A DNA stretch of 64,000 nucleotides from the human T2T-CHM13v2.0 reference genome, Homo sapiens (GCF_009914755.1 NC_060930.1), one strand, 5' to 3'. Positions 672-64,000 are shown, counted from the stretch's first letter. Translations and numbers: made by a program. The notes: generated by a model from the sequence alone, not told the origin.

Positions 672-3600
672 TTTTATTATTATTATTATTATTTTATTAT
701 TATTATACTTTAAGTTTTAGGGTACATGTACACAATGTGCAGGTTTGTTACATATGTATACATGTGCCATGTTGGTGTGCTGCACCCATTAACTCATCAT
801 TTAGCATTAGGTATATCTCCTAATGCTATCCCTCCCCCTCCCCCCACCCCACAACAGTCCCCAGTGTGTGATGTTCCCCTTCCTGTGTCCATGTGTTCTT
901 ACTGTTCAATTCCCACCTATGAGTGAGAACATTCAGTGTTTGGTTTTTTGTCCTTGCGATAGTTTGCTGAGAATGATGGTTTCCAGCTTCATCCATGTCC
1001 CTACAAAGGATATGAACTCATCATTTTTTATGGCTGCATAGTATTCCATGGTGTATATGTGCCACATTTTCTTAATCCAGTCTATCATTGTTGGACATTT
1101 GGCTTGGTTCCAAGTCTTTGCTATTGTGAATAGTGCCACAATAAACATATGTGTGCATGTGTTTTTATAGCAGCATGATTTATAGTCCTTTGGGTATATA
1201 CCCAGTAATGGGATGGTTGGGTCAAATGGTATTTCTAGTTCTAGATCCCTGAGGAATCGCCACACTGACTTCCACAAGGGTTGAACTAGTTTACAGTCCC
1301 ACCAACAGTGTAAAAGTGTTCCTATTTCTCCACATCTTCTCCAGCACTTGTTGTTTCCTGAATTTTTAATGATTGCCATTCTAACTGGTGTGAGATGGTA
1401 TCTCATTGTGGTTTTGATTTGCATTTCTCTGATGGCCAGTGATGGTGAGCATTTTTTCATGTGTCTTTTGGCTGCAAAATGTTTTCTTTTGAGAAGTGTC
1501 TGTTCATATCCTTCGCCCACTTTTTGATGGGGTTGTTTGTTTTTTTCTTGTAAATTTGTTGGAGTTCATTGTAGATTCTGGATATTAGCCCTTTGTCAGA
1601 TGAGTAGGTTGTGAAAATTTTCTCCCATTTTGTAGGTTGCCTGTTCACTCTGTTGGTAGTTTCTTTTGCTGTGCAGAAGCTCTTTAGTTTAATTAGATCC
1701 CAATTGTCAATTTTGGCTTTTGTTGCCATTGCTTTTGGTGTTTTAGACATGAAGTCCTTGCCTATGCCTATGTCCTGAATGGTAATGCCTAGGTTTTCTT
1801 CTAGGGTTTTTATGGTTTTAGGTCTAACGTTTGAGTCTTTAATCCATCTTGAATTGATTTTTGTATAAGGTGTAAGGAAGGGATCCAGTTTCAGCTTTCT
1901 ACATATGGCTAGCCAGTTTTCCCAGCACCATTTATTAAATAGGGAATCCTTTCCCCATTTCTTGTTTTTTTCAGGTTTGTCAAAGATCAGATAGTTGTAG
2001 ATATGCGGCATTATTTCTCAGGGCTCTGTTCTGTTCCATAAAGGGTTTTATTTCTCCTTCACTTATGAAGCTTATTTTGGCTGGATATGAAATTCTGTGT
2101 TGAAATTTCTTTTCTTTAAGAATGTTGAATATTGGTCCCCACTCTCTTCTGTCTTGTAGAGTTTCTGCCGAGTTATCAGCTGTTAGTCTGATGAGCTTCC
2201 CTTTGTAGGTAACCTGACCTTTCTCTCTGGCTGCCTTTAACATTTTTTCCTTCATTTCAACTTTGGTGAAACTGACAATTTTGTGTCTTGGAGTTGCTCT
2301 TCTTGAGGAGTATCTTTGTTGCATTCTCTGTAGTTTCTGAATCTGAATGTTGGCCTGCCTTGCTAGATTGGGGAAGTTCTCCTGGGAAATATCCTGCAGA
2401 GTGTTTTCCAACTTGGTTCCATTCTCTCTGTCACTTTCAGGTATACCAATCAGATGTAGATTTGGTCTTTTCACATAGTCCCATCTTTCTTGGAGGCTGT
2501 GTTCATTTCTTTTTGGTCTTTTTTCTCTAAACTTCTCTTCTCACTTCATTTCATTCATTTGATCTTCCATAACTGATACCCTTTCCTCCAATTGATCGAA
2601 TTGGCTACTGAGGCTTGTTCATTCATCACGTAGTTCTCGTGCCTTGGTTTTCAGCTCCATCAGGTCCTTTAAGGACTTCTCTGCATTGGTTATTCTAGTT
2701 AGCCATTCATCTAATTTTTTTTCAAGGTTTTTAACTTCTTTGCCATGGGTTTGAACTTCCTCCTTTAGCTCCGAGGAGTTTGATTGTCTGAAGCCTTCTT
2801 CTCTCAACTCATCAAAGTCATTCTCCATCCAGCTTTGTTCCATTGCTGGTGAGGAGCTGTGTTCCTTTGGAGGAGGAGAGGCATTCTGATTTTTAGAGTT
2901 TCCAGTTTTTCTGCTCTATTTTTTCCCCATCTTTGTGGTTTTATCTACCTTTGGTCTTTGATGATGGTGACATACAGATGGGTTTTTGGTGTGGATGTCC
3001 TTTGTGTTTGTTAGTTTTCCTTCTAACAATCAGGACCCTCAGCTGCAGGTCTGTTGGAGTTTGCTGGAGGTCCACTCCAGACCCTGTTTGCCTGGGTATC
3101 AGCAGCGGATGCTGAAGAACAGCGGATATTGGTGAATAGCAAATGTTGCTGCCTGATCGTTCCTCTGGAATTTTCGTCTCAGAGGAGTACCCGGCCGTGT
3201 GAGGTGTCAGTCTGCCCCTACTGGGCGTTGCCTCCCAGTTAGGCTACTCGGGAGTCTGGGACCCACTTGAGGAGGCAGTCTGCCTGTTCTCAGATCTCCA
3301 GCTGCGTGTTGGGAGAACCACTACTCTCTTCAAAGCTGTCAGACAGGGACATTTAAGTCTGCAAAGGATTCTGCTGCCTTTGGTTTGGCAATGCCCTGCC
3401 CCAGAGGTGGAGTCTACAGGCATCCTTGAGCTGCGGTGGGCTGCACCCAGTTTGAGCTTCCTGGCCACTTTGTTTACCTACTCAAGCCTCAGCAATGGTG
3501 GGCACCCCTCCCACAGCCTCGCTGCCACCTTGCAGTTTTATCTCAGACTGCTGTGCTAGCAATGAGCGAGGCTCCATTGGTGTAGGACCCTCCAAGCCAG

Positions 3601-3948
3601 GCATGGGATATAATCTCCTGGTGTGCCATTTGCTAAGACCATTGGAAAAGTGCAGTATTAGGGTGGGAGTGACCTAATTTTCCAGGTGCTCTCTGTCACC
3701 CCTTTCTTTGACTAGGAAAGGGAATTACCTGACCCCTTGCACTACCCAGGTGAGGCAATGCCTCGCCCTGCTTCAGCTCACGTTTGGTGCACTGCACCCA
3801 CTGTCCTGCACCCACTTTCTGACACTCCCCAGTGAGATGAACCCAGAACCTTAGTTGGAAATGCAGAAATCACCCATCTTCTGTGTCATTTACACTGGGA
3901 GTTGTAGACTGGAGCTGTTTCTATTCGGCCATCTTGTCTCCACCCCCC
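672..3948 (-). mobile_element. L1PA3/PA4-type LINE-1 with complete 5'UTR and 3' end but about 2.9 kb of internal sequence missing
   Basis: (TTA)n tail at 672-705; L1PA3-like 3'UTR; ORF2 C-terminal peptides (933-2011); abrupt switch to ORF1 at about 2039; ORF1 peptides 1980-2843; 5' end ggccatcttg..caccccc at 3948. Confidence 0.95.
3495..3677 (+). CDS. L1 antisense ORF0 homolog, ATG-initiated, 60 aa (stops early relative to the 71-aa L1HS ORF0)
   Basis: MVGTPPTASLPPCSFISDCCASNERGS...IRVGVT matches the primate L1 ORF0 peptide; ATG context gcaATGG; lies antisense in the L1 5'UTR. Confidence 0.75.
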   Translation: MVGTPPTASLPPCSFISDCCASNERGSIGVGPSKPGMGYNLLVCHLLRPLEKCSIRVGVT

Positions 3949-3949
3949 A

Positions 3950-61800: not shown

Positions 61801-61863
61801 TATGATGTTAGCTGGTTATTTTGCTTGTTGGTTGATGCAATTTCTTCCTAGCCTTGATGGTCT

Positions 61864-62876
61864 TTACAATTTGGCATGATTTTGCAGTGGCTGGTACCGG
61901 TTGTTCGTTTCCATGTTTACTGCTTCCTTCAGGAGTTCTTGTAGGGCATTCCTGTTGGTGACAAAATCTCACAGCATTTGCTTGTCTGTAAAGTATTTTA
62001 TTTGTCCTTCACTTATGAAGCTTAGTTTGGCTGGATATGAAATTCTGGACTGAAAATTCTTCTCTTTAAGAATGTTGAATGTTGGCCCCCACTCTCTTCT
62101 GGCTTGTAGAGTTTCTGCCGAGAGATCTGCTGTTAGTCTGATGGGCTTCCCTTTGTGGGTAACCCGACCTTTCTCTCTGGCTGCCCTTAACATTTTTTCC
62201 TTCATTTCAACTTTGGTGAATCTGACAATTATGTGTCTTGGAGTTGCTGTTCTTGAGGAGTATCTTTGTGGCATTCTCTGTATTTCCCGAATTTGAATGT
62301 TGGCCTGCCTTGCTACGTTGGGGAAGTTCTCCTGGATAATATCCTGCAGAGTGTTTTCCAACTTGGCTCCATTCTCCCCATCACTCTCAGGTACACCAAT
62401 CAGACGTAGATTTGGTCTTTTCATATAGTCCCATATTTCTTGGAGGCTTTGTTTCCTTTTATTCTTTTTTCTCTAAACTTCTCCTCTTGGTTCATTTCAT
62501 TCATTTGATCTTCCATCACAGATACCCTTTCTTCCAGTTGTTCAAATCGGCTACTGAGGCTTGTGCATTTGTCACGTAGTTCTTGTGCCATGGTTTTCAG
62601 CTCCATCAAGTCCTTTAAGGACTTCCCTGCATTGGTTATTCTAGTTAGCCATTCATCTGATCTTTTTTCAAGGTCTTTAACTTCTTTGCCATGTGTTCGA
62701 ACTTCCTCCTTTAGCTTGGAATAGTTTGATTGTCTGAAGCCTTCTTCTCTCAACTCGTCAAAGTCATTCTCCATCCAGCTTTGTTCCATTGCTGGTGAGG
62801 AGCTGCATTCCTTTGGAGGAGGAGAGGCGCTCTGATTTTTTGAGTTTCTGGTTTTTCTGCTCTGTTTTTTCCCCAT
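61864..62876 (-). pseudogene. L1 ORF1p, frameshifted near 62450
   Basis: MGKKQSRK..coiled coil (62421-62876); RRM/CTD ..AREKG..ARREW..YPAKLSF (61969-62424). Confidence 0.95.
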
Positions 62877-64000
62877 CTTTGTGGTTTTATCTACCTTTGG
62901 TCTTTGAAGATGGTGACATACAGATAGGGTTTTGGTGTGGATGTCCTTTCTGTTTGTTAGTTTTCCTTCTAACAGTCAGGACCTTCAGCTGCAGGTCTGT
63001 TGGAGTTTGCCGGAGGTCCGCTCCAGACCCTGTTTGCCTTGGTATCAGCAGCAGAGGCTGCAGAACAGCGGATATTGGGGAACAGCAAATGTTGCTGCCT
63101 GATCTTTCCTCAGGAAGTTTTGTCTCAGAGGAGTACCCGGCCGTGTGAGGTGTCAGTCTGCCCCTACTGAGGGGTGCCTCCCAGTTAGGCTACTCGGGGG
63201 TCAGGGACCCACTTGAGGAGGCAGTCTGTCCGTTCTCAGATCTCTAGCTGTGTGCTGGGAGAACCACTACTCTCTTCAAAGCTGTCAGACAGGGACATTT
63301 AAGTCTGCAGAGGATTCTGCTGCCTTTTGTTTGGTTATGCCCTGCCTCCAGAGGTGGAGTCTACAGAGGCAGGCAGGCCTCCTTGAGCTGCGGTAGGCTC
63401 CACCCAGTTCGAGCTTCCCAGCTTCCTTGTTTACCTACTCAAGCCTCAGCAGTGGTGTGTTTCACTCCCCCGCTTTGCTGCCACCTTGCAGTTCGATCTC
63501 AGACTGCTGTGCTAGCAATGAGCGAGGCTCCATGGGCATAGGACCCTCTGAGCCAGGTGTGGGATATAATATCCTGGTGTGCCATTTGCTAAGACTGTCA
63601 GAAAAGCGCAGTATTAGGGTGGGAGTGACCCAATTTTCCAGGTGCAATCTGTGACCCATTTCCTTGGCTAGGAAAAGAATTCCCCAACCCCTTGCACTTC
63701 CCGGGTGAGGCAATGCCTTGCCCTACATCAGCTCAGGCTCGGTGCACTGCACCCACTGTCCTGCCCCCACTGTCCAAGAATCCCCAGTGAGATGCACCGA
63801 GTACCTCAGTTGGAAATGCAGAAATCGTTTGTCTTCTGCGTTGCTCACACTGGGAGCTGTAAACTGGAGCTGTTCCTATTTGGCCATCTTGGCTCCCCCC
63901 TATTTCATTATTTTTTATGGCTGAGTAGTATTCTATGATGTATACCACATTTTCTTTATCCACTCATCAATTGATGGACACTTAGGTTGGTTCCATATCT

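What the first reader, a model, noticed from the sequence alone, without database searches (positions are those of the whole stretch)
672..63900. Neighbouring L1 copies share a patchwork of apparently private substitutions (possible local inter-L1 gene conversion)
Seen directly, with consensus states from memory and from the other copies here. (1) gatcccAattgtc (KIDNW instead of KIDKW) in four copies: ~1702, 32461, 36323, 58771. (2) aatGagatcc in three: 32453, 36315, 58762. (3) ttGgagttcatt in three: 1561, 36182, 58629. (4) gctaCgttgggg (FPNVARQ) at 14431, 39847, 62316, but not 2366. (5) cttCatcc..tgtgCc and cagctGcat in the 10-16 kb and 35-41 kb copies but not the 58-64 kb copy. (6) gcAtagg, gaatGtata, gaatGccc, tttgGtctt, aagtctGtttg shared by the 35-41 kb and 58-64 kb copies. 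(7) ggacaGgaac at ~31771 and 35632. (8) gatagaGtgg at 16760 and 43160. (9) ctattcaGaatT in the 35.7 kb (minus) and 43.1 kb (plus) copies. Most are non-CpG transversions. The sharing sets overlap but do not nest, and they cross subfamily age (PA3/4 versus PA5-7) and orientation. At least two of the copies have their own distinct TSDs, so they are separate insertions rather than duplicates. Inference: repeated short-tract non-allelic gene conversion is homogenising the L1s of this locus. Alternatives are a rare source lineage inserting repeatedly here, species-specific subfamily diagnostics, or assembly/polishing cross-talk between repeats.
Basis: partly seen in the sequence, partly recalled or inferred. 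Interest (0 to 1): 0.85.

Follow-up and report, generated by a model that had tools for sequence, protein, structure and literature searches.

The report
Neighbouring L1 copies share rare substitutions
Separately inserted L1 retrotransposon copies on this stretch of human chromosome 6 share several substitutions that are very rare in L1s elsewhere, most likely because short patches were copied between neighbours (gene conversion), a known process seldom documented for L1.

Summary
All the quoted words are in the window. The L1 copies are separate insertions: own tails, own flanks, no non-L1 homology.

About half the listed variants are ordinary. aatGagatcc and ttGgagttcatt each occur in 5 of 29 dispersed copies. 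gaatGccc has 753 genome matches. Some others are CpG transitions.

A core set is rare genome-wide yet shared locally:
- gatcccAattgtc: 150 matches against 21,642 for the common word, 4 of them here.
- ttgcAtagg: 83 matches, 5 within 256 kb.
- The H/I double change: 9 matches, 2 here.
- gctaCgttgggg: 30 matches, 3 here.
- tttgGtctt: 45 matches, 3 within 68 kb.

No element elsewhere was found with more than two of the tracked variants. Sharing does not fit a tree. Sharing pairs are less diverged within about 30 bp of shared sites. Shared changes lean AT-to-GC.

Best reading, confidence 0.58: old, short-tract gene conversion between neighbouring L1s, reaching beyond the window (chr6:86.91-87.22 Mb). 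Overall identity is not raised, so "homogenising" overstates it. Timing is untested because no ape orthologues were available.

The parts
697..3945 (-). L1 copy A. Own A-rich tail and intact 5' end. Internal deletion of K-sense positions 1913-4796. Carries the rare T>A at 1703.
9885..16012 (-). L1 copy B, full length and of an older type (about 12% from K). Shares gctaCgttgggg (14431) with H and K, and cagctGcat (14710) with H.
16127..17158 (+). L1 copy C, a 3' fragment of an older type. Shares gatagaGtgg (16760) with I.
31444..32669 (-). L1 copy F, a 5'-truncated insertion with its own target-site duplication (GCTCAAGCTTTT). Carries the T>A at 32462 and ggacaGgaac at 31772.
35621..41439 (-). 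L1 copy H. 5' end intact; last 316 bp and tail missing. It is the hub of the sharing, carrying nearly every locally shared rare variant.
42970..43555 (+). L1 copy I, a 586-bp 3' end with tail, on the opposite strand to H and 1.5 kb from H's 5' end. It overlaps H by 269 bp of L1 positions.
57755..63901 (-). L1 copy K, full length with its own tail. Used as the coordinate reference.
58764..58776 (.). Word gatcccAattgtc in K (variant base at 58771; Lys to Asn in ORF2 on the sense strand). The same word is at 1696 (A), 32455 (F) and 36317 (H). B, C and J have the common word.
58851..58865 (.). Word tattgcAtaggtttt in K (variant base at 58857). Also at 36404 (H), and outside the window at chr6:86912721, 86999999 and 87037785.
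35742..35756 (.). Double change AattC in H. The same word lies on the other strand in I at 43104-43118. There are 9 matches in the whole genome.
60810..60824 (.). Word gtgtttgGtcttgct in K. Also at 38342 (H) and at chr6:87216776 in a twin-primed L1 outside the window. 45 matches genome-wide, against 7,500 for the common word.
61392..61406 (.). Word ctaagtctGtttgta in K. Also at 38924 (H). 93 matches genome-wide.
62310..62324 (.). Word ttgctaCGttgggga in K. Also at 39841 (H) and 14425 (B). 30 matches genome-wide. All 14 dispersed K-like copies have G at the first changed base; their majority word reads GA.
39144..39160 (.). Word gtagatctGcctccatc in H. Shared only with the full-length L1 at chr6:87.033-87.039 Mb, which lies on the opposite strand. 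10 matches genome-wide.
62843..62858 (.). Word agtttcTGgtttttct in K. Also at chr6:87033798 and 87051276. 113 matches genome-wide, but it is linked to other K states in dispersed copies, so it is probably a small-lineage marker.

Best explanation
Old, short-tract non-allelic gene conversion between separately inserted L1 copies that lie near each other in an L1-dense stretch (chr6:86.91-87.22 Mb; the window is its core).

Proposed mechanism: a break in one L1 is repaired from a nearby L1 on either strand. The repair copies a patch of a few tens of bases, which carries the donor's private substitutions. Repeated over time, this leaves a web of rare variants shared by overlapping, non-nested sets of neighbours.

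What is shown: the variants are rare genome-wide, they are enriched locally, the copies are independent insertions, the sharing does not fit a tree, and divergence dips next to shared sites.

What is inferred: the copying event itself, its direction and its date.

Only about 1-3% of variant sites are affected, so the copies are not homogenised overall.
For: 1. Rare yet local. The local share of each rare word, with the spans where I measured them:
- 4 of 150 matches.
- 5 of 83 matches, within 256 kb.
- 2 of 9 matches.
- 3 of 30 matches.
- 3 of 45 matches, within 68 kb.
- 2 of 10 matches.
- 2 of 93 matches.
- 2 of 57 matches.
The common words have 21,642 and 7,500 matches.

2. Separate insertions. 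The copies have distinct tails and flanks. F and J have their own target-site duplications. The only non-L1 self-matches in the window are Alu-Alu pairs plus one 379-bp old repeat. The outside carrier at chr6:87.2135-87.2178 has a twin-primed structure of its own.

3. No dispersed lineage. Among the complete lists for four variants (230 matches), no two different variants lie within 30 kb of each other anywhere outside this locus. By my reading of the lists, none of the other 34 carriers of the ttGgag+aatGag haplotype has ttgcAtagg.

4. K's backbone is closer to dispersed copies than to H, so K is not H's daughter.

5. The sharing is not tree-like. Exclusive sets by my tally's list: H+K 4, H+N50 8, K+N50 4, N48+N50 3, H+N48 1. 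Rare states also cross age classes (B and N49 are of older types).

6. Divergence of the sharing pair dips next to shared sites (47 pair-sites):
- Within 15 bp: 4.3% against a null of 7.35% (0 of 3,000 permutations as low).
- Within 30 bp: 4.8% against 7.4% (0 of 3,000).
- The dip fades by 200 bp.
For the H/K/N50 trio alone the figure is 3.7% against 7.0% within 15 bp (0 of 3,000). Other pairs in the same windows show 8.6%, so these are not conserved spots.

7. Shared variants lean AT-to-GC: 17:11, against 165:252 for private ones (odds ratio 2.4, p=0.03). T>G makes up 8 of 39 shared changes against 42 of 582 private ones. GC-biased conversion predicts this.

8. Sharing falls with distance:
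- Under 30 kb: 1.59 per kb.
- 200-400 kb: 0.28 per kb.
- Spearman -0.48, p=0.01.
Against: - No discrete tract can be drawn. Each putative event rests on 1-3 variants, because all L1PA copies are nearly identical around them.
- Overall identity between neighbours is not raised.
- Two variants sit in 4 and 5 copies, which would need several successive conversions of the same 100-bp segment.
- Sharing persists at 100-200 kb (1.06 per kb, mostly N50 with H and K). That is well beyond the roughly 10 kb reported for Alus (PMC8230782, passages).
- The distance trend is confounded. The 200-400 kb bin consists almost entirely of pairs with N48, which looks like a slightly older type.
- Some shared states are small-lineage markers. 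TG occurs with gaatGccc in three dispersed copies on chr2. TG occurs with ttGgag+aatGag at chr4:56.38 Mb. gaatGtata occurs with gaatGccc at chr1:46.965 Mb. Lineage markers could also skew the AT-to-GC test.
- Part of the dip ('other pairs') re-uses two sites in a segment that is well conserved in all copies.
- The panels are small (29 and 14 copies) and were picked by the search tool for likeness to K.
- Exact-word counts miss carriers that have a nearby mutation.
- No orthologues were available, so the timing is unknown.
Confidence: 0.58

Rival explanations
1. Related small source lineages happened to insert, or preferentially inserted, several times in the same L1-rich domain. On this view the shared states were inherited from the source RNAs and were not exchanged at the DNA level.
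For: - H, K and N50 all carry the ttGgag+aatGag haplotype, which has only 37 matches genome-wide. Seven of those lie within chr6:87.04-88.51 Mb.
- Several K states (TG, gaatGccc, gaatGtata) recur together in dispersed copies.
- Same-variant carriers also cluster at other loci, over hundreds of kb.
Against: - The sharing sets are mutually incompatible.
- Rare states cross age classes.
- By my reading of the lists, none of the other 34 haplotype carriers has ttgcAtagg.
- K is closer to dispersed copies than to H.
- Inheritance does not predict a divergence dip confined to about 30 bp around shared sites.
- From recall, no local re-insertion preference is known for L1.
Confidence: 0.2
2. Nothing local is going on. 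The pattern is a mix of ordinary polymorphisms, CpG hot spots and chance parallel mutations in a window that simply holds many L1s.
For: - About half the listed variants are common or CpG-type.
- Dispersed copies also share about 0.1-0.2 rare states per kb, and up to 7-11 per pair in the 5' half.
- Single pairs at about 1% frequency (290, 280 and 142 matches) are unremarkable one by one.
Against: - Variants at 0.04-0.7% frequency sit in 3-5 neighbouring copies.
- Local sharing is 4.7 times the local-versus-panel rate.
- Divergence dips next to shared sites.
Confidence: 0.1
3. DNA-level duplication or inversion copied L1 segments locally. In particular, H and I may be one element split by an inversion with staggered breaks, which would have duplicated 269 bp.
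For: - H lacks its 3' 316 bp and its tail.
- I is a 3' end with a tail, on the other strand and 1.5 kb from H's 5' end.
- Their L1 positions overlap by exactly the 269 bp that hold the doubly rare change.
- H-I has the fewest mismatches of any local pair in that overlap (13).
Against: - This explains only the H-I pair.
- Thirteen mismatches is no fewer than H shows against the best dispersed copies.
- No matching target-site duplication was found.
- For all other pairs there is no flank homology.
Confidence: 0.05
4. Assembly or polishing cross-talk between repeats wrote one copy's bases into another.
For: None from any call. It cannot be excluded with these tools.
Against: The copies differ by 6-12%, and the shared states are isolated bases in otherwise distinct sequence. 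From recall, long accurate reads place such copies uniquely.
Confidence: 0.03

Closest known systems
Non-allelic gene conversion between neighbouring Alu elements (Aleshin and Zhi 2010, as described in passages of PMC6598467 and PMC8230782; the paper itself is not held)
   Same: Non-diagnostic substitutions are shared by separately inserted neighbours. There is a distance dependence, and the inferred mechanism is the same.
   Different: Here the elements are 1-6 kb L1s rather than 300-bp Alus. Sharing is seen at tens to about 200 kb rather than about 10 kb. This is one locus plus a rough genome-wide hint, not a genome-wide study.
Interlocus gene conversion in segmental duplications and small gene families (recalled; general theory in passages of PMC6598467)
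   Same: Short tracts, GC bias, phylogenetic incongruence, and dependence on identity and distance.
   Different: These copies arose by retrotransposition, not by duplication of a segment. They share no flanks and show no concerted evolution overall.
Repair of a break in a chromosomal LINE by gene conversion from endogenous LINEs in mouse cells (Tremblay et al. [quoted passage not shown] 1991, seen only in the reference list of PMC5640379)
   Same: L1 serves as both donor and acceptor, with very short tracts possible.
   Different: Those are an experimental system and single mouse loci. Donors there were not restricted to neighbours.
Recombinant or mosaic L1 elements (35 recombinant calls among 2,267 young human L1 consensus sequences, PMC13192797, methods passage)
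   Same: Mosaic L1 sequences that do not fit a tree.
   Different: Those are large-block mosaics of young lineages, detected with 3SEQ and BOOTSCAN. Here the signal is single rare bases in 20-30-Myr-old copies (age recalled from typical divergence), tied to physical neighbourhood.

Membership tests
Non-allelic gene conversion between dispersed repeats | Donor and acceptor are paralogous copies of independent origin, not alleles or duplicates. | tested here: met
   The copies have distinct tails and flanks, F and J have their own target-site duplications, and there is no non-repeat homology in the window.
Non-allelic gene conversion between dispersed repeats | Shared derived states that no single tree of the copies can explain. 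| tested here: met
   Exclusive sets, by my tally's list: H+K 4, H+N50 8, K+N50 4, N48+N50 3. The four-gamete test fails for many site pairs, by my reading of the tables.
Non-allelic gene conversion between dispersed repeats | A contiguous tract of raised identity around the transferred states. | tested here: inconclusive
   Divergence dips to 4.3-4.8% within 15-30 bp, against a null of 7.4%. It is 5.2% against 8.6% for control pairs in the same windows. No bounded tract can be drawn.
Non-allelic gene conversion between dispersed repeats | The state appears in the acceptor after its insertion, as shown by orthologue comparison. | not testable with these tools
   No other primate genome is held.
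Non-allelic gene conversion between dispersed repeats | Sharing is more frequent between closer copies. | tested here: inconclusive
   Rates are 1.59, 0.82, 1.06 and 0.28 per kb for under 30, 30-100, 100-200 and 200-400 kb, with Spearman -0.48 and p=0.01. The far bin is almost all one copy (N48), and the pairs are not independent.
Non-allelic gene conversion between dispersed repeats | GC bias of the transferred states. | tested here: met
   AT-to-GC against GC-to-AT is 17:11 for shared states and 165:252 for private ones (p=0.03). This is weak, and lineage markers could contribute.
L1 subfamily or lineage diagnostic positions | The state is common genome-wide and linked to other states in dispersed copies. 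| tested here: not met
   Met for aatGagatcc and ttGgagttcatt (5 of 29 each), gaatGccc (753) and probably TG and gaatGtata. Not met for the core set of 9-150 matches with no linked dispersed carriers.
Segmental or tandem duplication | Homology continues into the flanks at the same divergence as the repeat. | tested here: not met
   A sensitive self-comparison finds only Alu-Alu matches and one old 379-bp repeat outside L1.

The most novel reading that the evidence does not exclude
L1-dense domains rich in full-length elements may act as long-range gene-conversion neighbourhoods.

On this reading, GC-biased exchange of patches of a few tens of bases between separately inserted L1s, on either strand, reaches 100-200 kb. 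That is about ten times the range reported for Alus.

The same process would be visible across the genome. Outside this locus, carriers of the same rare L1 variant lie within 100 kb of each other about four times more often than carriers of different variants: 18 of 16,918 pairs against 7 of 28,900, p=4e-4.

A roughly 100-bp segment of ORF2 (K 58762-58857) would be a favoured exchange site.
Probability: 0.3. Interest if true: 0.7.

Novelty: new member of a known kind. Interest (0 to 1): 0.55.

Why it matters
L1 copies are widely used as neutral molecular clocks and to build subfamily trees, on the assumption that each copy mutates on its own after insertion. If neighbours exchange patches, three things follow:
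- Some "private" mutations are not independent.
- Ages and mutation spectra from dense L1 regions are slightly biased.
- Each patch marks a past ectopic repair event, the same kind of event that can cause L1-mediated rearrangements.

Complete assemblies make this measurable genome-wide. The word-count test used here could be scaled up directly.

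Tried and rejected
- Segmental duplication. A self-comparison at two sensitivities found no flank homology.
- K as a daughter of H. Rejected, because K is closer to dispersed copies.
- A dispersed lineage carrying the whole variant set. Rejected by cross-matching the match lists (my reading). A few two-variant co-occurrences elsewhere (chr1:157.35, chr12:48.44, chr9:117.95, chr4:5.21 Mb) are about as many as chance predicts from the counts; that estimate is mine.
- Long identical runs as tract evidence. Runs of 32-66 columns around shared sites are not unusual at 6% divergence by my estimate, so I dropped this.
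- A first version of the divergence test used two mis-specified positions and a null that included the fast-evolving 5' end. It was redone.
- Doubleton counts in the 5' half were less clear than hoped. Dispersed pairs reach 5-11 shared states, so I relied on genome-wide counts instead.
- Twin priming as the origin of H+I. The topology fits, but 1.5 kb of non-L1 DNA lies between them. An inversion remains possible.
- Fetching the 400 kb around the window was not possible. Only five neighbouring pieces (49 kb) were read, so other local L1s, for example the carrier at chr6:87051276, were not examined.
- Aleshin and Zhi 2010 is not held.
- Four literature searches found no study of neighbour sharing among human L1s. 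The library lacks most subscription journals, so this is weak evidence of absence.
- Dfam consensi, GENECONV, ape orthologues and long reads were not available.

Full report
WHAT IS THERE

The window (chr6:87110001-87174000 of the complete human assembly, per the hub's note) is packed with L1 copies. A self-comparison and a mapping onto the full-length copy K give this layout:
- A 697-3945 (-), with an internal deletion.
- B 9885-16012 (-), full length.
- C 16127-17158 (+).
- D 23429-24481, E 29589-31039 and G 32959-35339, all old (70-81% identical to K).
- F 31444-32669 (-).
- H 35621-41439 (-), with an intact 5' end but lacking the last 316 bp and the tail.
- I 42970-43555 (+).
- J 55087-57042 (+).
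- K 57755-63901 (-), full length.

Copies A, B, C, D, F, I, J and K each have their own A-rich tail and unrelated flanks. F and J have clear target-site duplications. Outside L1, the window matches itself only at Alus and one old 379-bp repeat. The copies are therefore separate insertions. I could not name Dfam subfamilies. By divergence there is a younger set (A, F, H, I, K: 3-6% from the majority of dispersed K-like copies) and an older set (B, C, J: about 10-11%).

THE OBSERVATION

To judge rarity I used two yardsticks.

The first was panels of dispersed copies returned by whole-genome DNA searches with parts of K. There were 29 copies for the 3' 1.6 kb and 14 usable for the 5' 4 kb. The tool scored only 40 of 15,501 and 40 of 11,058 candidates and favours likeness to K, so the panels are biased.

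The second was exact-word counts over the whole genome, each with a reversed-word control.

Ordinary variants:
- aatGagatcc and ttGgagttcatt each occur in 5 of 29 panel copies.
- gaatGccc has 753 matches.
- gaatGtata has 280 and ggacaGgaac has 290.
- From the printed contexts, the states at K 60672 and 62918 and the second gcAtagg at K 63538 look like CpG transitions. The scripts' own CpG flag did not exclude 63538.

Rare and locally shared variants:
- gatcccAattgtc: 150 matches (control 45) against 21,642 for the common word. Four are here, in A, F, H and K. It is in none of the 29 panel copies.
- ttgcAtagg: 83 matches. On chr6 they lie at 86912721, 86999999, 87037785, 87146404 (H) and 87168851 (K), so five fall within 256 kb.
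- The H/I double change: 9 matches, two here.
- gctaCgttgggg: 30 matches, three here, in B, H and K.
- tttgGtctt: 45 matches against 7,500 for the common word. Three lie within 68 kb, in H, K and chr6:87216776.
- aagtctGtttg: 93 matches, two here.
- cagctGcat: 57 matches, two here.
- gatagaGtgg: 142 matches, two here.
- A state I found in H (gtagatctGcc): 10 matches, the other local one at chr6:87035032.

NEIGHBOURS OUTSIDE THE WINDOW

I fetched five pieces:
- N48: a full-length L1 at chr6:86.912-86.918 Mb.
- N49: an older-type L1 at 87.000-87.005 Mb.
- N50: a full-length L1 on the opposite strand at 87.033-87.039 Mb.
- N68: a twin-primed, internally inverted L1 at 87.2135-87.2178 Mb.
- A fifth piece at 87.863-87.873 Mb, which I did not analyse further.

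The phenomenon therefore extends beyond the window. A larger fetch of the surroundings was not possible, so other local L1s remain unread.

IS IT MORE THAN CHANCE?

In the 3' 1.6 kb, eight younger local copies share non-CpG states absent from all panel copies at 0.91 per kb (29 events over 31,739 aligned pair-bases). Local-versus-panel pairs share them at 0.19 per kb (61 over 314,831). Twelve of the 29 events come from two multi-copy variants.

A stricter doubleton count in the window alone gave 7 in 10 local pairs, 67 in 406 panel pairs and 25 in 145 mixed pairs. One four-carrier state was entirely local.

The 5' half is less clear. The background there is about 1 doubleton per pair, and some dispersed pairs share 5-11. 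For that reason I lean on the genome-wide counts.

WHAT IT IS NOT

It is not duplication, because there is no flank homology.

K is not a daughter of H. K is 90.9% identical to H over the 5' 4.1 kb but 91.5-92.9% identical to ten dispersed copies. In the 3' part, K-A (94.5%) and K-H (94.3%) fall inside the panel range of 92.2-94.7%. The copies are therefore not homogenised overall.

It is not a dispersed lineage carrying the set. Across the complete lists of four variants, no two different variants lie within 30 kb anywhere else. By my reading, none of the other 34 carriers of the rare ttGgag+aatGag haplotype (37 matches) has ttgcAtagg.

Some states do behave as small-lineage markers:
- TG recurs with gaatGccc in three chr2 copies.
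- TG recurs with the haplotype at chr4:56.38 Mb.
- gaatGtata recurs with gaatGccc at chr1:46.965 Mb.

I do not count these as evidence for exchange.

EVIDENCE ON MECHANISM

First, the 39 states shared by younger local copies and absent from both the panels and the older copies form incompatible sets. By my tally's list these are H+K 4, H+N50 8, K+N50 4, N48+N50 3 and H+N48 1, plus multi-copy sets. No tree fits them.

Second, rare states cross age classes. B shares two with H and K, and N49 carries ttgcAtagg.

Third, the sharing pair is less diverged right next to shared sites. The null was restricted to K 57790-63000 to avoid the fast 5' end.
- Over 47 pair-sites, within 15 bp: 4.3% against 7.35% (0 of 3,000 permutations as low).
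- Within 30 bp: 4.8% against 7.4% (0 of 3,000).
- Within 100 bp: 6.3% against 7.45% (P=0.0003).
- Within 200 bp: 6.9% against 7.5% (P=0.014).
- H/K/N50 trio alone: 3.7% against 7.0% within 15 bp (0 of 3,000), 5.0% against 7.0% within 30 bp (P=0.008), and no signal beyond 50 bp.

Control pairs in the same windows show 8.6%, so these are not conserved spots. The 'other pairs' subset re-uses two sites in a conserved segment and is weaker evidence.

Fourth, shared states lean AT-to-GC: 17:11, against 165:252 for private states (p=0.03). T>G is 8 of 39 against 42 of 582.

Fifth, sharing falls from 1.59 per kb under 30 kb to 0.28 per kb at 200-400 kb. That trend is confounded by which copy sits far away.

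Together these fit old, short (tens of bases), GC-biased gene conversion between neighbours on either strand.

WHAT DOES NOT FIT EASILY

- Two states in four and five copies need repeated events in one 100-bp segment (K 58762-58857).
- The range, up to about 200 kb, exceeds the roughly 10 kb reported for Alus (passages of PMC8230782 and PMC6598467).
- The ttGgag+aatGag haplotype clusters at the megabase scale: 7 of 37 within chr6:87.04-88.51 Mb, on different backbones.

An unknown regional bias in where related lineages insert cannot be excluded. I give it 0.2.

THE H-I PAIR

This pair may have a different cause. H lacks its 3' end and tail. I is a 3' end with a tail on the other strand, 1.5 kb from H's 5' end. 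The two overlap by exactly 269 bp of L1 positions. An inversion with staggered breaks in one original element would produce this layout and the shared double change. The 13 mismatches in the overlap are the fewest among local pairs, but no fewer than H shows against the best dispersed copies. The question stays open.

A GENERAL TREND?

Outside this locus and off the Y chromosome, carriers of the same variant lie within 100 kb of each other in 18 of 16,918 pairs. Carriers of different variants do so in 7 of 28,900 pairs (odds ratio 4.4, p=4e-4). Two of the lists used were truncated to their first 100 matches.

Several close pairs are inverted and 2-12 kb apart, so they may be palindromic duplicates. 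I did not exclude segmental duplications.

COMPARISON WITH WHAT IS KNOWN

- Neighbour gene conversion is established for Alus (passages of PMC6598467 and PMC8230782).
- L1 as donor and acceptor in break repair, and an intrachromosomal conversion in one L1 locus, are described or cited in PMC1920257 (passages).
- Recombinant young L1s are reported in PMC13192797 (methods passage).
- Four searches found no neighbour-sharing study for human L1. The library lacks most subscription journals.

I file this as a new member of a known kind, with moderate interest.

Noticed in passing
L068 2015-6258 (chr6:87.2135-87.2178 Mb): An L1 with the classic twin-priming layout. The 3' part (K-sense 4172-6147) lies on one strand and K-sense 1780-4056 is inverted next to it, with 116 bp missing at the junction. 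It carries tttgGtctt in the inverted part.
   Followed up: partly
window 35621-43555: H (no 3' end, no tail) and I (a 3' end with tail, on the opposite strand) are separated by 1.5 kb of non-L1 DNA that starts with a left-arm Alu fragment (41440-41590). The layout fits one L1 split by an inversion that duplicated 269 bp.
   Followed up: partly
window about 9869-9887 and about 16075-16093: The sequence just left of B's tail recurs as an imperfect inverted copy of about 17-19 bases in the 114-bp spacer between B and C. This hints at a rearrangement at B's ends.
   Followed up: no
window 43530-43600: The last bases of I, its tail and the first 13 flank bases (GAAAGTTAAGAAG) are tandemly duplicated as a diverged unit of about 33 bp.
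   Followed up: no
window 43614-43930: A complete Alu on the minus strand with target-site duplication TCAGGTTTATCTT, directly right of I.
   Followed up: no
K 58762-58857 and the matching stretch of the other copies: Three states with multi-copy local sharing lie within 96 bp: aatGagatcc (F, H, K, N50, N68), the T>A at 58771 (A, F, H, K) and ttgcAtagg (N48, N49, N50, H, K). This may be a favoured exchange segment.
   Followed up: no
chr6:87.04-88.51 Mb: The joint ttGgag+aatGag haplotype has 37 matches genome-wide, and seven lie in this 1.5 Mb, on at least two different backbones. Other clusters are at chr3:182.85-183.26 Mb (3), chr10:22.90-22.91 Mb (2) and chr14:38.83-38.88 Mb (2).
   Followed up: no
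other chromosomes: Same-variant carriers cluster elsewhere too. Examples: four gaatGtata carriers at chr4:101.06-101.33 Mb, five gaatGccc carriers at chr1:46.67-46.97 Mb, and inverted pairs 2.4-4.2 kb apart for cagctGcat at chr5:50.65, chr12:41.63 and chr19:25.24 Mb. The inverted pairs are probably head-to-head duplicates.
   Followed up: partly
L064 and L065 (chrX:53.18 and 53.14 Mb): Two panel copies 38 kb apart on opposite strands share 11 exclusive states in the 5' 4 kb, the most of any dispersed pair. They could be an inverted duplication or another case of neighbour sharing.
   Followed up: no
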